NCBI GenBank assembly: GCA_965153355.1
Contig: OZ231126.1
Location: 5,580,001-5,644,000, forward strand
DNA: 64,000 bases
Source of the DNA: Flaccisagitta enflata
Lineage: Eukaryota
Direction: 5' to 3'
In this document: one piece after another, positions 2,433 to 61,409 of the stretch
Position numbering within the stretch: position 1 is the stretch's first letter
Layout: each line of letters begins with the position of its first letter
Translations under genes and position numbers: made by a program
The notes under the pieces: model-generated
What the model was told of the DNA's origin: nothing
The model's input: only the letters and a program-made list of their open reading frames with translations
Databases searched by the model: none

Positions 2433-14004
<11,572 letters not shown>

Positions 14005-28933: not shown

Positions 28934-30035
28934 CATGCGACTGAAATCGTACGTGGAGATTAACGAACCTTTGTACTCATTGTAATTGAGTGCTTCAAAA
29001 CTGATAAATTCGGGAGCAACATGACTCATGTGAATTACCCTTGTGTACTTCACTATTTTTTAAAGGCCCACGAGTTGGCTTGAAATGAGAACCGGGATTG
29101 TTAAGGTCATTAGAAATGAGAGCGATCGACGCGTCCCCAATGGCTCTTCACACGTGCGTGCAAGATTGCATGCTCAGCGCTTATCTCTACACGTCTGAGA
29201 ACACAACATGCATTTATCAAGCGACTATACTAATTGATGAACACTACTTTCTCCCACTCATTACTAAGCCGATAACGGATTACATATTATTTCTACCCCG
29301 CGTATTACGGCGAATCTCTCGACTACATTAAAACTTTTTCTCCACACATTACGAGCCTTATTATCCACATTCACTGGAGATCCCCTGGATAAACACCAGT
29401 TTCCTAGTCATTATCTTAAACTTATGTAACCATTTACTCATCGATCTATCTACGTGTGAGAACGCGAGTGTTTAAACGGATGGATGTGAACTGAATTTTG
29501 CTAATTTCTATCGATTGCTGTCTCGTAGATTTAAAGTGTGCCGAAATTCTGGATGTGTCGATGATTTTAATATTTTTTTCAATCGCACTTTTCTCCAGGC
29601 TTTGTTGTTATCTTTCAAGAATGTATATTCTCCCGAGCTTGTTAATTGTTTGCCTCCCTTTGTCGTTGATTTTATCACTATTTATTTGATGATTGCTGAC
29701 TAACGCAGAAATATCAAGCAAGTAGCTAGAATCATTAACGGCTTTAAGAATAATTTTATTGATAATCGCTACGGGGAACTGAGAAGTAAAAATCCATCAC
29801 CGGGAGTAAAGAATATCCGGAAAAAACTGCTGAAAAAAAAAGTACACAAAACATAACAGCAACCAAATCAGTGAATAAACTTGAACGATTAAGTAAAGAA
29901 GAGAACCCAACTAAGACTGTAAGACATAGCATCCAGACTTTGATCTAGCTACCGTCCAGAGGGGTTTGACACCGAACTCATTGCGGAGAAGTTGTAACTC
30001 TTGGAGTTTGCGGAGCTTCACTGCGGCGATATAGG

Positions 30036-31176
30036 ATGGCCTCTGCCGACGTGATTTGCGACTTGTGTCGCGATCCCATCGAAATTTACGCGACCGGCAG
30101 CTGCGATCATTCCATCTGTCACACCTGCGCCACCAGAATGAGGGTCCTTTGCAAACAAAACTACTGCTCCATTTGCAGGTATAGGCCACTAGAATGAGGG
30201 TCCTATGCAAAGAAAAGTACTGCTCCATATGCAGGTATGTGTCACCAGAATGAGGGTCCTATGCAAACAAAACTACTGCTCCATTTGCAGGTATAGGCCA
30301 CTAGAATGAGGGTCCTATGCAATCAAAACTAATGCTCCATTTGCAGGTATGTGCCACCAGAATGAGAGGCCTATGTAAACAAAACTACTGCTCCATTTGC
30401 AGGTGTGTGCCACTAGAATGAAGGTCCTATGCAATCAATACTACTGCTCCATTTGCAGGTATAGGCCACTAGAATGAGGGTCCTGTGCAAACAAAACTAC
30501 TGCTCCATTTGCAGGTATGTCCCTGGGGGACCGGGGAAGGCTCTGGAATCATTCCATCGCTCCATTCGCGGATGAAAAGCCGAGGAGCGATGTTGTTGGT
30601 CCGTATGTTGATATTTTGCCATTCACGATTCGTTGAATTCTGACATTCATTCTGATTTGATGATGTTGCAGTGTTGATGTGTACGGTTTTGCCGATCTTC
30701 CTCGTCTGGGGTAGGTTCGTGGCTGAGCTTCATGACACCTTAATTCCTGTAAATTTTTTGTCAACAATTCTTGTTTAAGTGAAAGCTGACAATTGTCATC
30801 TCCTGTCCATAGGACTGAGCTCTCTGAGATGGTTTTCGGTTGGGAGAGTCGGAAGTTTTCTTGGTACTCCGCCAAGTCGTCGACTTTGTTGGTCGATAAG
30901 CTGCACCCGGGATTCAAATTCGAAGACCGAGACGTCAGGTAAGTGGAGAGACTTGGACGTATAACTAGATCCAATTACGTGGTGAAAATGAGACGCGCTG
31001 TAACCGCAAAAAAAAAAAATTCACTCTCGAAAGGCACTGGATTCCTCACTGGATTTCTAGATCTATGAGTTAGCCTATCGATTTTTAGATGCGTCCTCGT
31101 ATCTCTAAAAGAGGCTTTGTCCGTCTGTTGGTCCGTCCGTGGCGTGTTTTTTTTTGGGGGGTGCGTAAAATCGAGC

Positions 31177-31272
<96 letters not shown>

Positions 31273-34200
31273 GTGCGCTATTACAAGCCCCTTCACAAGA
31301 AGAAAGCGCAAAGGATGCATCTAAAGCGCGATTTTACATTAGACTGAATTGAAATCTAATGAAACGACTGAAATGACTGAAATGACTGAATTGATTTTAC
31401 ATAAGACTGAATTGAAATCTAATGAAATGATAGTGAAAAGAACGCACGGCGAGTTTGATTGATGCCCCTAATGTAGTTACTTAACAGTTAGCAGTCACCG
31501 CCTTCCACCACAACAGCATCGATAATTCCCTGATAAAACTTTTATACCGTGCCTTTTTAAATTCAGGCGACGCTTCCAAGCGTTATTAGAGCATCAATGT
31601 CATTTATGCGACGCGGATCCTTGTCTGACATTCGCTCTCCTAAAAACTCACTACACTCGGAATCATTCCTTGTTCTTCTGCGATCTCTGCCTGAAACATC
31701 TCGACTTGTTCTCTCACGAACGGAGAGTGTATGACCGGTGAGTTACAAGCGACAAGTCGTTCGGCACCTAAAGTATGCCAGTAAATGTGTGTTGGTAGTC
31801 TTTTGATTGGTGAGTGTTGTCGGTTTGACAGTCGAGTAGTGTCTTTCGAGGTGAATTGCATGACTGCACGTCAGTGAGTGAAACATTTGTCATTGAGTAA
31901 TGTCAATGAGTAAGTGGTAGAAGAGATTGTTTGAGAAGGGGAACGGATTGGAATGGGCGGCGCCAATGTTATGCCATAAAATGTGTTGCTAGTCTTATGC
32001 TTGGTAAGTGGTGCGAGTTTGACTGTCGAGTGATGTCATGCGAACCGAATGGCGCGCTAGTGAAAGAGACGTAAGCAAGCGAGTCGAAGGAGAGGTTGAA
32101 ATGGCCGCTTGTTCTCTGTGGAGTGCCCTGCCATATAATGAAGCCCCTTCCCATTCGTATTTGTTTTCGTATTTAACTGCAGCAAAGAGTTGGCTCGTCA
32201 TCGTCGTGAGGGTGACACGGAGGACCGATCCCATCGAGGGCATCCACTCTGCGAGTTTTGCGACGAGCGATATTTCGACAACGACGAACTCATGAAGCAT
32301 TTGAGAACCGAACATTACTTCTGCCATTTCTGCGAACACGATGGCGTCAATAACCAATACTACGCCACTTACTCTGATCTCAAAGGTGAATTTGTTTTGG
32401 TCGACTGTATTCGCATTGGCAGTTTAACAACGTCAGGTGTTCATTGCGAATGTATTCTTTTAAATGAAAATCAGTAAGGTGGGCGATGGAGGTATGTGCG
32501 ATTCGCGAGAAATTCTATCGGTGTTGATATTAGATATTGCGTCTTGCTAATCAAACTTACATTTTCTGTACTCTCGTCACTGTTTCCATTATTTTTACTT
32601 TGCCTCAGTTAAGCAAATTTGCTCTGTACCTTGCCTAGGCAAAGAGGTGCATGCAACTACACGACAGTTCACAATTATGATTTCTGGCTCAAACGTCTAG
32701 AAGCATGACATGAGCGTGTATTTAAAATTTCAAGGCAATAGCATCAATATTTTAGAAATTACAGCCGTTTTTATATATGACAAGAAAAAAGAAAAAACCG
32801 ACAGTGTTTTTCTCCATTCTCACGGAACTTGCCCCCAATACAAATTTCAAATTTAAAAAAAAAGTATTTTCCAGGGTATTGGATCTAGGCAAATTAAGTC
32901 ATTTCCTATCGATTGCACCCCACTTTTAAAGACAATTTTTGAAAAAAATATTTTGTAAAAATTCTTAGAGGCCCCAAGTAAAAATACTCTAAAATTTTCT
33001 AGGATTTCTGAAAAAAAAATAATTTTCAGGGTATTGGATCTAGGCGAATTGGGTCATATCCTATCAATTGCACCCTACTTTTGAAGACCATTTTCCAAAA
33101 AAAAATTTTTGATTTTTTTCCAAGTCGCGACAAAAAAATTTCCAAGTTTTTTTTAAAAAAGTCAAATTTCAAGATTTTGGATCTAGGCGAATTAGGTCAT
33201 TTCCAATTTATTGCACCCCACTTATTTTTTTCAAAAAAAATTCTTTTGGGTTTTTTTTGGGGGCCCTTAGGGCCCCCTTAGAAGTCAAAACATTTTGGCT
33301 TACTGAGAGAATGCCGCGTAAGAAATCGAATCTCTGTCAAATAAAACCAAGAACATCTACATCGGTTGTGATTTACGCCTGTCGTGAGTCTAGACACTTC
33401 AGGGGGCGAGTTTTTTTCAAACAGAGATGCGAATCCAGCCTTATAATTTTAAAGTAGTAGCTCGTCCCCTACCTTGCCTTTATCAACTTTTTCTGTGCGA
33501 GCAGGGCCTACATTACATGTAGAATAATTTGTAATCATTGCCGTTTAAAATGTTTTCCGTCCTTGTTAGATCACTTCAAATCGAGTCATTTCCTGTGTGA
33601 GGAGGGTGAATGTGCCTCAGCGCAGTTCACCAACGCGTTTCGAAGTGAGATCGACTTGAAGGCTCATCTCGGTTCCGCGCACAAGGACAACTACAAACAC
33701 AAAGGAAAACTCAAGCGCGATCTGCAACTGGATCTGGATTTCGGACCTCAATCTAGGTTTGCACGTTTGACAAACGTTTGTCTACGTATTTTTTCATCAT
33801 TTTTAGTTGCGGACACGCGACTCTGAGGCTGTGTCGGTCATTTGGTCTGTCGGTCCGTTTGTCCGTTGGTCCGTCAGCACTAGTCAAAAAGTGGGAAAAA
33901 GTGTTACTGTCTGACTAGTCTAGCCTTTCAGACATCGTTTTCAACCGATGTCAAGCGACTGAAATCGTCCATATGTATTCACATTACAATTGAACCCCAC
34001 TCCAATAGTCTCGCTTCAAACGGAATTCCGCCTATGACAGATGTTGATTTTTTATTTCTTCTGCTAGTTTTCTTTTATTTCTTTTATTAGCTATTATAAA
34101 ATTAAAGTCTTTAACAAATGAAATTTAATGGTCCCTTCAAATCCGTTGGAGTGGCATTGAACTGTATTTTCTATTCACTTATATTTTTCTTTACTTGCGT

Positions 34201-36192
34201 TCGTTTTACTGAATAGGGGATTGCCTGGTCGTGGACGCGGGCGGGAACGAGATCGGGGTGAAGAGGCGCCGCGCGGTCGAGGCCGAGGCCGAGACGACCG
34301 AGACAGTCCTAGGACAGTCGGCAAACTAGACAGGACTACGCTAGACGATGGAGGAGGCGGAGGCGGAGGAGGAGAGACGCCTAACAGGTCGGTGACTAAG
34401 TTATCGTCTTTTCTCTCTCTTGATTCAAAACTGGCGCTCTATCTCGGTAACACGTCCCTCCCTTTCACACCCACCTCCCATCCTTTCACACCCACCTCCC
34501 AGTCCTTTTAAGCCAACCATTTTACATTGTGATCGTTCCTCATCTCTTTGATTTTTAGGCTTGCCCTTCTACAGAAGCTGTTCGTTTGGTCTTATCCGTC
34601 TGTCGATATATACATATGTGTGCACATGTGGACGATGCTGTCCCCTGCGTGAACGAAATCTTCTGATATTTTCTGTTTCTTCTGCTTCATTTCCTTTCAG
34701 AAACAGTCCACTTCCTGAAACGACTTTTCGATTGGATGAAGTGGCCGAGTTTCCGACGCTTGACAATACCAAGCCCATTCCCCAGTCAACGACCCCGGCT
34801 GTTTCCAAATCAAAACCAGTCCGGTATGATGCATTGACACGTCTTCTTAGGCGAGTGTATTTTACTATCTTAACTATACATATATTTGATAAGGGCAGTA
34901 AGGCGTAACGAGAGTTCTGGTGATTTCTTATGAAGATGTGGTTTTGTAGTATTAATACGTAGATGACCACGCTGGGGCCAATGGTTTTAAATATTTGCTT
35001 AGGAGCAACTGTTCCAAAGATGATTCTGTTTAAGTATTTGCACGATCTTGGATTCGACCTTGGCGGCTTTTACATTCATGTCAATTGCGTGTTTACTTTC
35101 TATGCACATCTTCATGCCGTCACTAGGGGGCTGGGGGCTGTGACTTTACAGCCCTTCCCTCCTCCAATACTCATCCCCCACCTGCCTATCATCCTCCAAT
35201 GCAGGGAAGAAGAAGAAACTTACATCGTATTCTCTGAGAGTGTGGATCCTAAAACTATGAAGCCCAAAGAAGGATCAGCGGCAAAAGTCTCCTCTGGATT
35301 GAAAGCGTTCAGGACGGTTTGGACCAACGACAGCGGAATCGACAATGATCAGGTGAATGACAATGAACTAGGTCAAGCTGAGAGACGCGCTCAGGATGGT
35401 TTAGACCAACGACAGCGGAATCGACAATGATCGGGTGAATGACAATAAACTAGGTCAAGCTGAGAGTCACGCTCAGGACGGTTTGGACCAACGACAGCGG
35501 AATTGACAATGATCAGGTGAATGACAATAAACTAGGTCAAGTTGAATCGCGTTCAGGACGGTTTAGACCAACAACAGCGGAATCGACAATGATCAGGTGA
35601 ATGACAATAAACTGGGTCAAGCTGAGAGTCGCGCTCAGGACGGTTTGGACCAACGACAGCGGAATCGACAATGATCAGGTAAATGACAATAAACAAGGTC
35701 AAGCTGAGTCGCACTCAGGACGGTTTAGACCAACGACAGCGGAATCGACAATGATCAGGTGAATGACGATGAACTAAGTCGAGCTGAGGGTCGCGTGTGA
35801 GTGTAGAAGTGAGCTATAGCTACAAAAAGAAGTAAGCGACTGCCGACCAACCGCTTATAGATGTGTAAAATGCATTTCAGTCAGAACCTAGAGGGTATGT
35901 CCGTCTGTCTGTTCGTCCTTCAGCCAGTTCAACATGCAAGTTCTTATTGATGGTTGGAGATGATTCATTCACAAGGAGACGTCTTTCTAATTTTTCACGA
36001 CTCTTTATCTCATCTCTACTTTAGGCGGCCTTTCCAACGTTGGGTGAGAGTTTACAACCGAAGAAAAAGTCTGAGCCGCCTCCAAAAGAAACGCCCACAT
36101 CCAAACAGCAAAACTCGGGCTGGACTCTGGTCGACGACGACGATGACGACCATCCGTGGTCTCAACCACAACCACAACCACAACCAAAAAAC
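30036..36192 (+). CDS. ZNF598: ZNF598/Hel2 ribosome-quality-control RING E3 ligase; 3' end not resolved
   Basis: Exons 30036-30178 (RING CDLC..CDHSICHTCATRMRVLCKQNYCSICR), 30813-30938, 31567-31737 (LFFCDLCLKHLDLFSHER), 32183-32385 (LARHRREGDTEDRSHRGHPLCEFCDERYFDNDEL), 33570-33756 (HFKSSHFLCEEGEC..AFRSEIDLKAH), 34217-34387 (RG-rich), 34701-34823 (EFPTL), 35205-35352 and 36025-36192 (AFPTL). All are phase-consistent with GT-AG introns. Confidence 0.93.
30129..30520 (+). repeat. 7 x 56-bp tandem repeat of the ZNF598 exon-1 3' end + donor
   Basis: Units start at 30129, 30185, 30241, 30297, 30353, 30409 and 30465; each ends TGCAG|GT. Confidence 0.97.
32655..33430. mobile_element. Probable non-autonomous element with three ~150-bp internal repeats
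   Basis: GGATCTAGGC.AATT.GTCAT.TCC.AT..ATTGCACCC.ACTT at ~32881, ~33037 and ~33179. Boundaries are approximate. Confidence 0.45.
33987..34164. mobile_element. MITE, inverted diverged copy of the 5527-5703 family
   Basis: TA|CAATTGAACCCC..GGAATTCCGCCTAT.ACAGATG ... TGAACTG|TA. Confidence 0.7.
35309..35795 (+). repeat. 6 x 80-82-bp tandem repeat of a ZNF598 exon 3' end + donor
   Basis: Units at 35309, 35391, 35473, 35553, 35635 and 35715; each contains GACAATGATC(A/G)G|GT(G/A)AAT. Confidence 0.95.
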
Positions 36193-37936
36193 GTGAGTAC
36201 AAGATAGTAACCCCATCCAAAAACGATCTCACGTGATCATAATCATAACCAGAGGGCGTGAGTGAATGGCCATCTCTGACCGCATCGATAATCTGAAAGC
36301 GTGTTTTCATTCACAGTTCATGAATGGGCACCTTATGTTTAAAATGAAATTGCACAAATCATTCGCTATACACTCGTCTGTCTCTTTCTGCGTCTAGCTT
36401 TGTCTGTCTATGTTGGTCGCTCTACCCGTCTTTCTATCTTTGTCTCTCTAAGAAAGTTTGTTTGTGTCTCTGACTCCTGCGTATGAGTGCGCGCGTATGT
36501 CTGTCTGTTTCTATTTTTGTAGATGACTGTCTTTCTCCCGTCGTTCTCTAAAAACGGATATACATTTTGAAATTTGGAAATCGTCCACAAGTTGGTGCCC
36601 TCACGACCACAACCACCGCTATCTTGAACCGCAAGCTGACTTGCATCCTGACTCATGCGCAGAAAAATGAAATGGAGAATGCGTATGGTAAATAGGTTGT
36701 ACAAAAAGCGATAACAGGCAGTTATAACATATCGGTAATATCGGCAAAATAAGCATTGTACCAGTTAAAGCTTTCACACTTAATACACGGGACTTGGTTT
36801 TTGTAGTTGAAGCGTGCCTACTGTTAGAGATGGTAGAATTTTTTTTCAGGCGGTCACGGTGTTTTTATGCCATTTATATTCAAATTTTGCGCTTTATTTT
36901 CCATCCAAGGCTTTTCAGCACCCAATATCATTCCCAGAGATCGCATTTGAGTCTAAGAACTTGAAGTTTTAACAAAAATTGGCGATTTTCATGTGATTTT
37001 AGTTAAAAATAATGATCAATTTTTGGTAAAAATCGTGTAGCAAATGTGTAGCACAGAGAAATACTCATTTTTGGGACAAGTTTTACTTCATTCATACCGT
37101 GAGGAACGTGGAATTATCTCTATTGACTTATTAGAGATAGATGAAAAAAAAATTTAGGCGATATCTTTCTTTTTACGCGAAAAAGCTTGCTCAAAAGATG
37201 CAGTGTCAGTGACACCGAAATTGTTTTCAACCCATCAACTCTATGGGTTATTTCATAATTCTTTAGAGGGGGTCTGGCTAGTGATTTAAAGTGATTTTTC
37301 TGTTGCAGTCCCTAGATTTAGGTCTAATAGACCAAAGACGACCGTTGATTTGATCAAGACAATCGCAAGAGAAATTCCCTATCCACTTTTCCGACCAGCC
37401 CTATTTCCGGCGCTTTAAGAAGACATGTTCCATTTTGTCACAGGTGTTCTTATCATGTCATATTCCGTTGTTAAGCAATCTACGTTGAATTAAGCTTTTT
37501 TTTTTAACTTTGTTGGCATGTTTTCAACTCTGCAGAAAAAGAAAATGCAACAGTTGGACGTAATGATATCAGAGTTGATCATGTGACAGGATGACCCTTT
37601 TTCCGACGCTTTAAGAAACTTGGCGGAAACTCGGCGAAAGTTGCCAGGGTCAATTTCAATAACTATAAGGTTGCTCATAAGTTTTTATTTGCAAGCTAAT
37701 AAGAGGAAACACTATGACGCTTCTGAGAGCTGATCCCATTGAAACATATCGTCGTCGTCGTCGTCGTTGTTGGAGACTCAGTGGGGTAATAATTATTCTA
37801 TTTTAACGATTTCTTAGGCTTAGCCCATAAATACTGACCCAACTGGTCAAAAAACAGGTCAATGACTGGTCAAAGTTGATTGAAATTGGAGAAAAGGCAG
37901 AAGCTCTAATTAAGCTTTGGGATCAAAAAGTCGTTT

Positions 37937-38492
37937 ATTCATTCACTCATTCATTCACTCATTCATTCACTCATTCATTCCTTCATTCATTCATTTGTTC
38001 ATTCACTCGTTCATTCATTCATTCCCTTGTTCATTCATTCGTTCATTCACTCGTTCATTCATTCATTCGTTCATTAATTTGTTCATTCATTTGTGCATTC
38101 ATTCATTCACTCGTTCATTTATTCAATCACTCGTTCATTTATTTATTTACTCATTCATTTATTCATTCACTCGTTCATTTTTTCATTCACTCGTTCATTT
38201 ATTCATTCACTCGTTCATTTATTCATTCACTCGTTCATTTATTCATTCACTCGTTCATTTATTCATTCACTCATTCATTTATTCATTCACTCGTTGATTT
38301 ATTCATTCACTCGTTCATTTATTCATTCACTCATTCATTTATTCATTCATTCTTTTATTCATTCACTTGTTCATTATTTCATTCATTCGTTCATTCATCC
38401 GCTCATTCATTGACTCTTTCATTCATCCTCTTGTTAATTCATCCACTGTATTCATTCACTTGTCCATTCATACCCTTCATTCATACCCTTCA
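37937..38492. repeat. (TTCA)n-derived satellite with a 20-bp higher-order unit
   Basis: ATTCATTCACTCGTTCATTT repeated. Confidence 0.9.
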
Positions 38493-38654
38493 TTCGCACG
38501 TATTTCCTGAAAAAAAGCGTCTAGGTTGCTTACAGAATTGAACAAGTCAGATCGGGCAACTAGATGCGTCATCTGCGTGATATTAGAAGAGGCGTAACGG
38601 ACCGACGGACATAGCATTCATTTTAGCCTTATTCTCTAGTCAGAGAGAGACAGG

Positions 38655-38725
<71 letters not shown>

Positions 38726-39516
38726 GTTGACCAAATTTTGACCGACACTGCTTTATTTTGCATCAAAAAAGGAGCACAAATCGTCTTAAAGAGCATTCGA
38801 TTTGATAGGCGACATCGCCACGGCAGATAAGTGCCGAAAACTGTGTTTTTAAGGAGGCGTAACGGACGGACCGACGGGCGGACCGACGGACCGACCGACG
38901 AACCGACGGACGGACAGACCCTCTTATAGAGATGCGAGGACGCATCTAAAAACAGCTTTCCTACCCCTTATGACGACGACAATGACCAAGGCGATAAGAA
39001 ACTTGAGGATTCCAAGTTTTCAGATTCGTCTGTTAGTTTTGCTTCTCCCGCCAAACTTCGCTCCCATTTCCATTCATAAAAATGGATTGCGGAAATCATG
39101 AGCATCCTGCGCTTATATGCTAAGGAAGGACGGACTCTTTGAAAACGCGATATACCATCCAAAAGGGCTTTTAACATATCCCGACACGAAGAAATTCTGC
39201 TTTGAGCAGTGGCGCACTATCAAGGGTTAACCTGATTTGCATAATTAAGTGAAAACTCGCATTTGCCGGCGTGCTACAATTTATTAAGCGCCAATATCCC
39301 GAGGAATGACTAAAGGTGGTTTCTAGGAAAGGTTATGACGAGTTTTTAACAGTTTTGAAAGATGAAAATTTTTCTTGTCATTTGACCGCCTGAAAAAAGA
39401 TTCGACCAGATATTATTATTATTTCCCTAAATTTTTAAGGAGTATCTTTTTGTCGTTTTCTCGCTGTAATTGTTTTTTGTTTTAAGGAGACTGTTGTTGT
39501 TCTTGTTGACTAGTTT

Positions 39517-61409
<21,893 letters not shown>

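What the first reader, a model, noticed from the sequence alone, without database searches (positions are those of the whole stretch)
30129..30520. Seven copies of the ZNF598 RING-exon end, each with TGCAG|GT (donor and acceptor in one)
Only the first donor keeps the frame (a TGA follows within unit 2), yet it is the weaker GTATAG, while GTATGT variants lie downstream. Each junction is preceded by a short pyrimidine-rich stretch (CTGCTCCATTTGCAG). It could therefore act as a zero-length recursive site: splicing donor 1 to a later AG regenerates a donor. This is also the classical AG|GT-duplication route to intron gain.
Basis: partly seen in the sequence, partly recalled or inferred. Interest (0 to 1): 0.75.

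Follow-up and report, generated by a model that had tools for sequence, protein, structure and literature searches.

The report
Splice-junction "mirage" repeat in ZNF598
A 56-base piece covering the end of a ZNF598 exon and its splice signal is repeated seven times, and the assembled RNA uses only the first signal; this is a known oddity ("mirage" minisatellite) that seems common in this animal's genes.

Summary
The array is real: 7 x 56 bp (30129-30520), each unit 50 nt of ZNF598 exon-1 end plus 6 nt of intron. Only donor 1 (GTATAG, the weaker variant) gives an open frame; all other donors hit a TGA at 30195-30197. RNA contigs from 3 of 4 runs join 30178 to 30813, with no depth over units 2-7; contigs cannot show rare isoforms. 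A second copy of the locus 237 kb away has 11 units and a GTATGT first donor. Inner units carry neutral-looking changes, and their splice letters are not significantly conserved. It is a boundary-spanning "mirage" minisatellite (amphioxus; human F7 intron 7). It is not Rogers-type intron gain; recursive use is unsupported but not excluded. The class recurs here: a second array in the same gene, two in the neighbouring gene, and 6 of 424 sampled kinase, myosin and kinesin junctions, on donor and acceptor sides. Inside genes, 6 of 7 long-unit arrays straddle a junction (1.4 expected; threshold partly post hoc), but a blind test showed no enrichment. The scan noted this class before on other DNA (urchin, annelid, camelid).

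The parts
30036..30178 (+). Coding part of ZNF598-like exon 1 (RING domain), ending in unit 1 of the array
   Evidence: Open frame from ATG 30036; Pfam RING_ZNF598 E 2.8e-15; covered by RNA contigs in X1, X2, X4
30129..30520 (+). Minisatellite, 7 x 56 bp; each unit = last 50 nt of exon 1 + first 6 nt of intron 1
   Evidence: TRF; unit alignment; 50 exon-derived + 6 intron-derived nt
30179..30184 (+). Authentic donor GTATAG (32nd percentile of sampled donors)
   Evidence: GT..AG joint 30178-30813 in one contig each of 3 runs; score
30195..30197 (+). TGA in unit 2, reached by any mRNA that keeps array sequence
   Evidence: All later donors and all internal AG-to-donor retentions stop at codon 54
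30230..30520 (+). Six decoy CAG|GT junctions (AG ends at 30234, 30290, 30346, 30402, 30458, 30514); 4 of 6 score as stronger donors than the authentic one
   Evidence: no RNA contig depth from 30211 to 30771
30521..30812 (+). Unique remainder of intron 1 with the real acceptor (AG 30811-30812, 71st percentile)
   Evidence: Sequence; shared with the second gene copy; joint; score
30813..30938 (+). Exon 2
   Evidence: In frame after donor 1; RNA contigs
35305..35795 (+). Second donor-spanning array in the same gene, 82 bp x 6 (18 units in the second gene copy); first donor after 35352
   Evidence: TRF; exon chain stays open through it; unit counts; no RNA test
48374..50291 (-). Donor-spanning array, about 70-72 bp x 27, in the neighbouring NHL-repeat gene; first donor after 50227 (ATG|GTAAGA)
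   Evidence: TRF; sequence read; 27 of 27 decoy GT intact; exon inferred from sequence, no Pfam hit on this exon, no RNA test
56346..56801 (-). Degenerate donor-spanning array (about 55-62 bp) in the same neighbouring gene; first donor after 56759 (CTG|GTGAGT)
   Evidence: TRF; long open frame ends there; no RNA test

Best explanation
A tolerated, length-variable minisatellite of the 'mirage' / F7-intron-7 kind. A 56-bp tandem duplication caught the end of exon 1 and six bases of the existing intron, before the two gene copies diverged. Unequal exchange then varied the unit number (7 and 11) and shuffled variants, including the GTATAG tail now shared by units 1, 3 and 6. The spliceosome takes the first donor after the exon even though later ones score higher, so units 2-7 leave with the intron and the protein is unchanged. 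Shown: anatomy, frame consequences, the main joint, the copy difference. Inferred: the duplication history, positional (first-come) donor choice by analogy with F7, NMD of any mis-spliced mRNA, and near-neutrality.
For: Direct 30178-30813 joint in 3 of 4 runs laid (2 studies) and no contig over units 2-7. Second copy has 11 units, all but one with an intact GTATGT. Unit 1 is identical in its 50 exonic bases in both copies, while the units show 10 synonymous, 21 non-synonymous and 1 stop variant; 31% synonymous is compatible with the neutral 19-25% (P 0.08-0.28). Splice dinucleotides of decoys are neither conserved nor destroyed across 13 donor and 7 acceptor arrays (p 0.15 and 0.48). 15 of 16 inner units share one variant across both copies, so the array predates their split. 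Same arrangement and outcome in human F7 (PMC1557585; abstract, introduction and passages read) and amphioxus mirages (PMC3087553, PMC3902484; passages read).
Against: RNA evidence is thin: assembled contigs of depth 3.8-13.6 from other individuals, whose arrays and first-donor alleles are unknown; contigs drop rare forms; the only raw-read run did not hold the gene. Internal AGs score like real acceptors. Only 1 of 16 inner junctions lost a splice letter (not significant). In human IFI6 (6-16) and CBS some pseudo-donors are used (PMC1557585 introduction).
Confidence: 0.8

Rival explanations
1. Internal CAG|GT junctions act as zero-length recursive sites: donor 1 splices to AG 3-7, which rebuilds a (mostly stronger) donor that then joins exon 2. 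The mRNA is the same.
For: CAG|GT with 9-10 pyrimidines in 14 nt; scores at the 46th-68th percentile of real acceptors and in the top 3-6.5% of 1412 intronic AGs. Recursive sites occur over a range of intron sizes in human (PMC10156609, passages).
Against: 634-nt intron; for human introns under 1,000 nt conventional lariats predominate. The step to AG 2 is shorter than any of 69 introns. No significant conservation. The acceptor look comes from the exon's own codons, which predate the array. Sister arrays lack the AG. No intermediate could be tested.
Confidence: 0.1
2. The stronger downstream donors divert part of the transcripts into PTC-containing, NMD-degraded forms, so array length and donor allele tune ZNF598 dosage.
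For: The used donor is weaker than 4 of 6 decoys; every alternative stops at codon 54; pseudo-donor use is reported for two human genes. NMD would hide such forms from poly(A) assemblies.
Against: The weak first donor is specific to this copy; the other copy has GTATGT throughout. No contig in the array. Inner units vary neutrally.
Confidence: 0.06
3. Intron or exon gain in progress by AG|GT duplication (Rogers model, or the mirage-recruitment model of PMC3087553).
For: Each unit has AG|GT; mirages are proposed as raw material for new introns.
Against: The duplicated segment is not purely exonic, and coding does not resume after unit 7. Any 1-5 units kept as an exon stop at codon 54, including the 168-nt in-frame case.
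Confidence: 0.02
4. Assembly artefact.
For: No DNA reads were laid, and the assembly holds many near-duplicate gene pairs.
Against: Units differ pairwise by 2-10 of 56 bases, and the second copy has its own distinct 11 units.
Confidence: 0.02

Closest known systems
Amphioxus 'mirage' minisatellites (Adh3, globins BflGb6/BflGb9, TnC, PGBD5; PMC3087553 and PMC3902484, passages read)
   Same: Tandem copies of an exon-intron boundary; both 5' and 3' boundaries affected within one genome; most units keep splice signals; normal splicing continues; unit number differs between haplotypes (6 vs 3 there, 7 vs 11 here); boundary units partly excluded from homogenisation; several loci per genome.
   Different: Different animal and gene. 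Here the unit is almost all exon (50 of 56 nt) and the used donor is weaker than most decoys. The passages read list single loci and give no genome-wide rate; here a sample gives 6 of 424 junctions. Their supplements were not read.
Human F7 intron 7 37-bp VNTR, with IFI6 (6-16), CBS, LMNB2 and PDGF cases (PMC1557585; abstract, introduction, passages)
   Same: First unit spans the donor; 4-8 functional pseudo-donors follow; the most upstream is used even when downstream sites match U1 better.
   Different: The F7 unit has only 4 exonic bases and identical donors; it was tested by mutation in mammalian cells. No such test exists here.
Recursive splice sites / ratchet points (PMC5126111 and PMC10156609, passages read)
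   Same: YAG|GT junction with a pyrimidine-rich stretch inside an intron.
   Different: Here the sites are by-products of an exon-end repeat in a 634-nt intron, variable in number, not conserved, and without lariat evidence.
Intron gain by tandem genomic duplication (Rogers model; PMC3443670, passages read)
   Same: Tandem duplication of a segment containing AGGT.
   Different: The model needs an exonic segment whose last copy resumes the coding sequence; here the segment spans an existing donor and no new intron results.

Membership tests
Mirage / boundary-spanning minisatellite | Tandem repeat whose unit spans an exon-intron boundary | tested here: met
   50 exon + 6 intron nt per unit; boundary confirmed by RNA joint
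Mirage / boundary-spanning minisatellite | Most units keep intact splice signals | tested here: met
   6 of 6 decoys in the window, 9 of 10 in the second copy
Mirage / boundary-spanning minisatellite | Regular splicing continues from the authentic site | tested here: met
   Only joint across the array is 30178-30813, in 3 of 4 runs; assembled contigs only, rare forms invisible
Mirage / boundary-spanning minisatellite | Length instability between haplotypes | tested here: met
   7 vs 11 units between two copies of the locus; whether the copies are alleles or paralogues is unresolved
Mirage / boundary-spanning minisatellite | Concerted evolution within a cluster, boundary units excluded | tested here: inconclusive
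   Mean differences 5.9 and 5.6 within copies vs 6.8 between; the two first units differ by only 2; no tree or test was run
Mirage / boundary-spanning minisatellite | Somatic instability (reported for Adh3) | not testable with these tools
   Needs single-individual deep DNA reads
Recursive splice site | Juxtaposed YAG|GT with pyrimidine tract | tested here: met
   CAG|GT; 46th-68th percentile of real acceptors
Recursive splice site | Lies in a long intron (classical cases) | tested here: not met
   634 nt; short-intron cases exist but are minor
Recursive splice site | Site conserved above intronic background | tested here: inconclusive
   1 variant in 4 junction columns among 36 distinct variants in 56 columns; pooled arrays p 0.15; number of sites varies
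Recursive splice site | Splicing intermediates or lariats at the site | not testable with these tools
   Only assembled contigs held the gene
Intron gain by tandem genomic duplication | Duplicated segment is exonic and coding resumes after the last AG|GT | tested here: not met
   About 290 nt of unique intron and a separate acceptor follow unit 7

The most novel reading that the evidence does not exclude
In this genome, long-unit minisatellites inside genes arise or persist preferentially at splice junctions, about four times more often than random placement predicts. They sit on about 1-2% of all junctions, on donor and acceptor sides alike. That would mean a mutational or retention bias tied to exon borders, such as junction-linked DNA breaks or strand invasion ending at exon borders. 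It would also give hundreds to thousands of natural ladders of near-identical splice sites in which the exon-proximal copy wins over stronger ones.
Probability: 0.4. Interest if true: 0.55.

Novelty: new member of a known kind. Interest (0 to 1): 0.3.

Why it matters
As a single locus it is a clean but ordinary mirage. Its use is as a natural test of position versus strength in donor choice: the used donor is weaker than four identical-context rivals, and units carry SNPs that let reads be assigned. The wider observation matters more. If junction-centred arrays are really enriched and cover about 1% of junctions, this genome allows a first census-scale study of how mirages originate, which the amphioxus paper calls unclear. 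It would also show how the exon-proximal site is chosen on the acceptor side, where the last AG of the ladder must win. Such arrays also mislead gene predictors, since they look like repeated exons.

Tried and rejected
Raw-read run X8 held only a dispersed repeat at 31080-31140, so it says nothing about the gene. A 24-nt exon-end pattern found 0 matches in metagenome contigs. Scoring array consensus units for donor motifs against shuffles was weak and uninformative. A codon-based exon classifier was unreliable (it scored an intronic stretch above real exons) and served only for leads.

Blind Pfam test of enrichment: 34 arrays (period 40 or more, 2.5 or more copies) in the window plus 400 kb; 150 of 161 edge frames sent, covering 32 arrays. 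3 had a hit over the cut-off, against 3 of about 31 random control places (150 of 333 control frames sent). No enrichment.

The idea that decoy GT or AG letters are selected for or against was rejected. An excess of unit lengths divisible by three is not significant (9 of 17, P 0.075). My early idea that only donors would be affected was rejected: acceptor arrays are also common. Breakpoint microhomology at this array is absent or imperfect on inspection and was not tested formally.

Literature searches for a genome-wide count of such arrays returned none in their listings. One search returned nothing. The library lacks most subscription papers, including the original Adh3 mirage paper. The organism was not identified, and the age of the intron position was not tested against other species.

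Full report
OBSERVATION. The array is as described. TRF gives 7.0 copies of 56 bp at 30129-30518. All seven TGCAGGT words of the window's + strand lie in it, and none is on the - strand. The frame from ATG 30036 matches Pfam RING_ZNF598 (E 2.8e-15). Each unit is the last 50 nt of exon 1 plus 6 nt of intron. Donor tails are GTATAG (units 1, 3, 6), GTATGT (2, 4, 7) and GTGTGT (5). With the acceptor at 30812|30813, only donor 1 reads on into exon 2; donors 2-7 stop at TGA 30195-30197. All 15 combinations that splice donor 1 to an internal AG and keep one to five units also stop at codon 54. Nine exons chain into an open frame up to 36192; I did not locate the gene's end.

RNA. Eight runs were listed and four laid on 29650-31170 at 90% likeness. 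X1, X2 and X4 (two studies, assembled contigs) each hold one contig with the GT..AG joint 30178-30813, skipping 634 nt, at depth 6.7, 13.6 and 3.8, with 111-129 letters on the shorter side. Depth is zero from 30211 to 30771 in all runs. X8, the only raw-read run, matched only a dispersed repeat. So the main mRNA uses donor 1. Rare isoforms and intermediates are invisible in such data, and the array alleles of the sampled animals are unknown.

SECOND COPY. The genome holds a colinear copy 237 kb upstream, mostly 87-97% identical over at least 30 kb. Its array has 11 units, all GTATGT except one unit that lost the GT. The two first units differ only in the last two donor bases, so the weak GTATAG is specific to this copy. 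It recurs in units 3 and 6, which implies exchange involving unit 1 (inference). Fifteen of 16 inner units share one variant absent from both first units, so the array predates the split. Distinct variants in the coding part are 10 synonymous, 21 non-synonymous and 1 stop; neutral expectation is 19-25% synonymous (P 0.08-0.28). Near-duplicate gene pairs on one contig are frequent in the match lists (read by eye, not counted). One RNA contig combines window-type exon 1 with a second-copy-type start of exon 3. Both points suggest two alleles assembled side by side, but a segmental duplication is not excluded.

SPLICE-SITE STRENGTH. I inferred 69 kinase introns (shortest 70 nt) and built matrices from them. 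The boundaries were chosen with a recalled generic donor table, so the matrices are partly circular. Donor 1 is at the 32nd percentile and GTATGT at the 81st. Internal AGs are at the 46th-68th percentile of real acceptors and the real acceptor at the 71st. But donor 1 to AG 2 would be a 56-nt intron, and the pyrimidines are simply the exon's own codons. Across 13 donor and 7 acceptor arrays (three donor arrays are second copies), the splice dinucleotide columns vary in 3 of 26 and 4 of 14 cases, against 60 of 234 and 24 of 126 neighbouring columns (p 0.15 and 0.48). There is no sign of selection to keep or destroy decoys.

THE CLASS IN THIS GENOME. The same gene has a second donor-spanning array (82 bp, 6 units here, 18 in the other copy). 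The neighbouring minus-strand NHL-repeat gene (Pfam NHL; 'TRIM2/3-like' is my recalled label) has two more, inferred from sequence only. To test generality I annotated exons independently of arrays. Across 66 kinase loci, those with two or more domain exons gave spans of 96,336 bp with 190 junctions; they hold 29 arrays of period 20 or more, and all 4 with period 45 or more and 2.5 or more copies straddle a junction, two donors and two acceptors. That threshold was set after seeing this list. Applied unchanged to 33 myosin and kinesin loci (117,716 bp, 234 junctions, 30 arrays) it gives 2 of 3, P 0.12 alone. Pooled: 6 of 7 against 1.36 expected, P 2.5e-4, and 6 of 424 junctions, 1.4% (interval 0.6-2.9%). 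The excess weakens with looser rules: 6 of 12 (period 30 or more, P 0.002), 6 of 20 (also 1.9 copies, P 0.03), 6 of 59 (all periods, P 0.38). Two short-period arrays touching exon edges (L127, L135) were scored as non-straddling without close inspection. Seven planned motor-gene regions were not fetched. Against enrichment: the blind Pfam test gave 3 of 32 arrays and 3 of about 31 control places. That sample includes intergenic and dispersed satellite families and Pfam misses many exons, but it is a null result. One kinesin array has 5 units in one gene copy and 7 in the other. In acceptor arrays the copy continuous with the coding exon is the last one (inferred from reading frames, no RNA).

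MECHANISM. Most likely (0.8): a boundary-spanning tandem duplication, amplified by unequal exchange, tolerated because the exon-proximal site is chosen. For donors this matches the oriented selection shown by mutation in human F7, where stronger downstream pseudo-sites do not compete (PMC1557585). Mis-splicing would give a 53-residue product and probably NMD (inference). Arrays in which the wrong site won would be purged, which explains why surviving arrays extend into the intron. Why they might form preferentially at junctions is not shown. Rivals: recursive use (0.1), regulated diversion to NMD (0.06), intron or exon gain in progress (0.02), artefact (0.02).

KNOWN KINDS. The term and closest family, amphioxus 'mirages', came from earlier notes of this scan. 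I checked it in two papers (listing; passages). They describe tandem copies of 5' and 3' boundaries, intact signals, normal splicing, haplotype length differences, an unclear origin and a hypothetical intron-gain route. Four of their features are met here, one is inconclusive and one untestable. The Rogers model fails its defining test. Recursive sites match in motif only. Earlier scan notes report the same class in sea urchin, annelid, camelid and another invertebrate, including several arrays per gene; these are unchecked notes. My searches listed no genome-wide count, within a library that lacks most subscription papers; no supplements were read.

VERDICT. Real, correctly described, and a new member of a known kind. 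The recursive and intron-gain readings are not supported. Interest 0.3. The remaining value lies in the possible genome-wide enrichment at junctions (probability 0.4, interest 0.55 if true).

Noticed in passing
G000:C1:5369674-5400000 (L004-L007) vs window 26907-57483: Colinear second copy of this whole region, mostly 87-97% identical, 237 kb upstream. It lacks matches to window 36831-39414 and 40120-46029. Many kinase, myosin and kinesin genes also occur as near pairs on one contig, suggesting uncollapsed haplotypes or frequent local duplication.
   Followed up: partly
L057:1932-2881 (minus strand): 63 bp x 15 array spanning a kinase exon's acceptor; 14 of 14 decoy AGs intact, 9 scoring above the authentic last one.
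   Followed up: partly
L071:2451-3660 (minus strand): 105 bp x 11 acceptor-spanning array in a DUF2838 gene; using the previous AG would add a stop-free, in-frame 35-residue insert, so expanded isoforms are possible here.
   Followed up: partly
L062:4447-4586: 48 bp x 3 array spanning the acceptor of a chromo-shadow-domain exon.
   Followed up: partly
L097 and L107: Two kinase genes each carry two junction-spanning arrays (112 and 87 bp acceptors; 103 and 99 bp donors), hinting that such arrays cluster in some genes, as in this window.
   Followed up: partly
L133:3943-4398 and L147:336-978: 96-bp donor-spanning array in a kinesin gene, 98% identical units, 5 units in one copy and 7 in the other; unit start and array end share a short GTGG word.
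   Followed up: partly
window 12800-12937 (minus strand); L014:317-834; L066:8900-9165; L022:2047-2346; L075:5916-6042: Further candidate junction-spanning arrays with open flanking frames but no Pfam hit over the cut-off.
   Followed up: partly
window 44443-45441 and 52727-53733; also L032, L050, L059: A dispersed composite repeat of about 143/162/303-bp period recurs at many loci; one copy lies in an intron of the NHL-repeat gene and is missing from the second locus copy.
   Followed up: no
window 39560-39920 (minus strand): Acidic, charged open frame ending in TAG with a 33-bp coding-type repeat; conserved in the second copy; gene not identified.
   Followed up: no
window 31080-31140: Short dispersed repeat fragment that draws very high RNA depth in all four runs laid.
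   Followed up: no
window 31784-32040: Imperfect two-copy duplication inside ZNF598 intron 3, each copy with a donor-like GT; not at the exon end.
   Followed up: no
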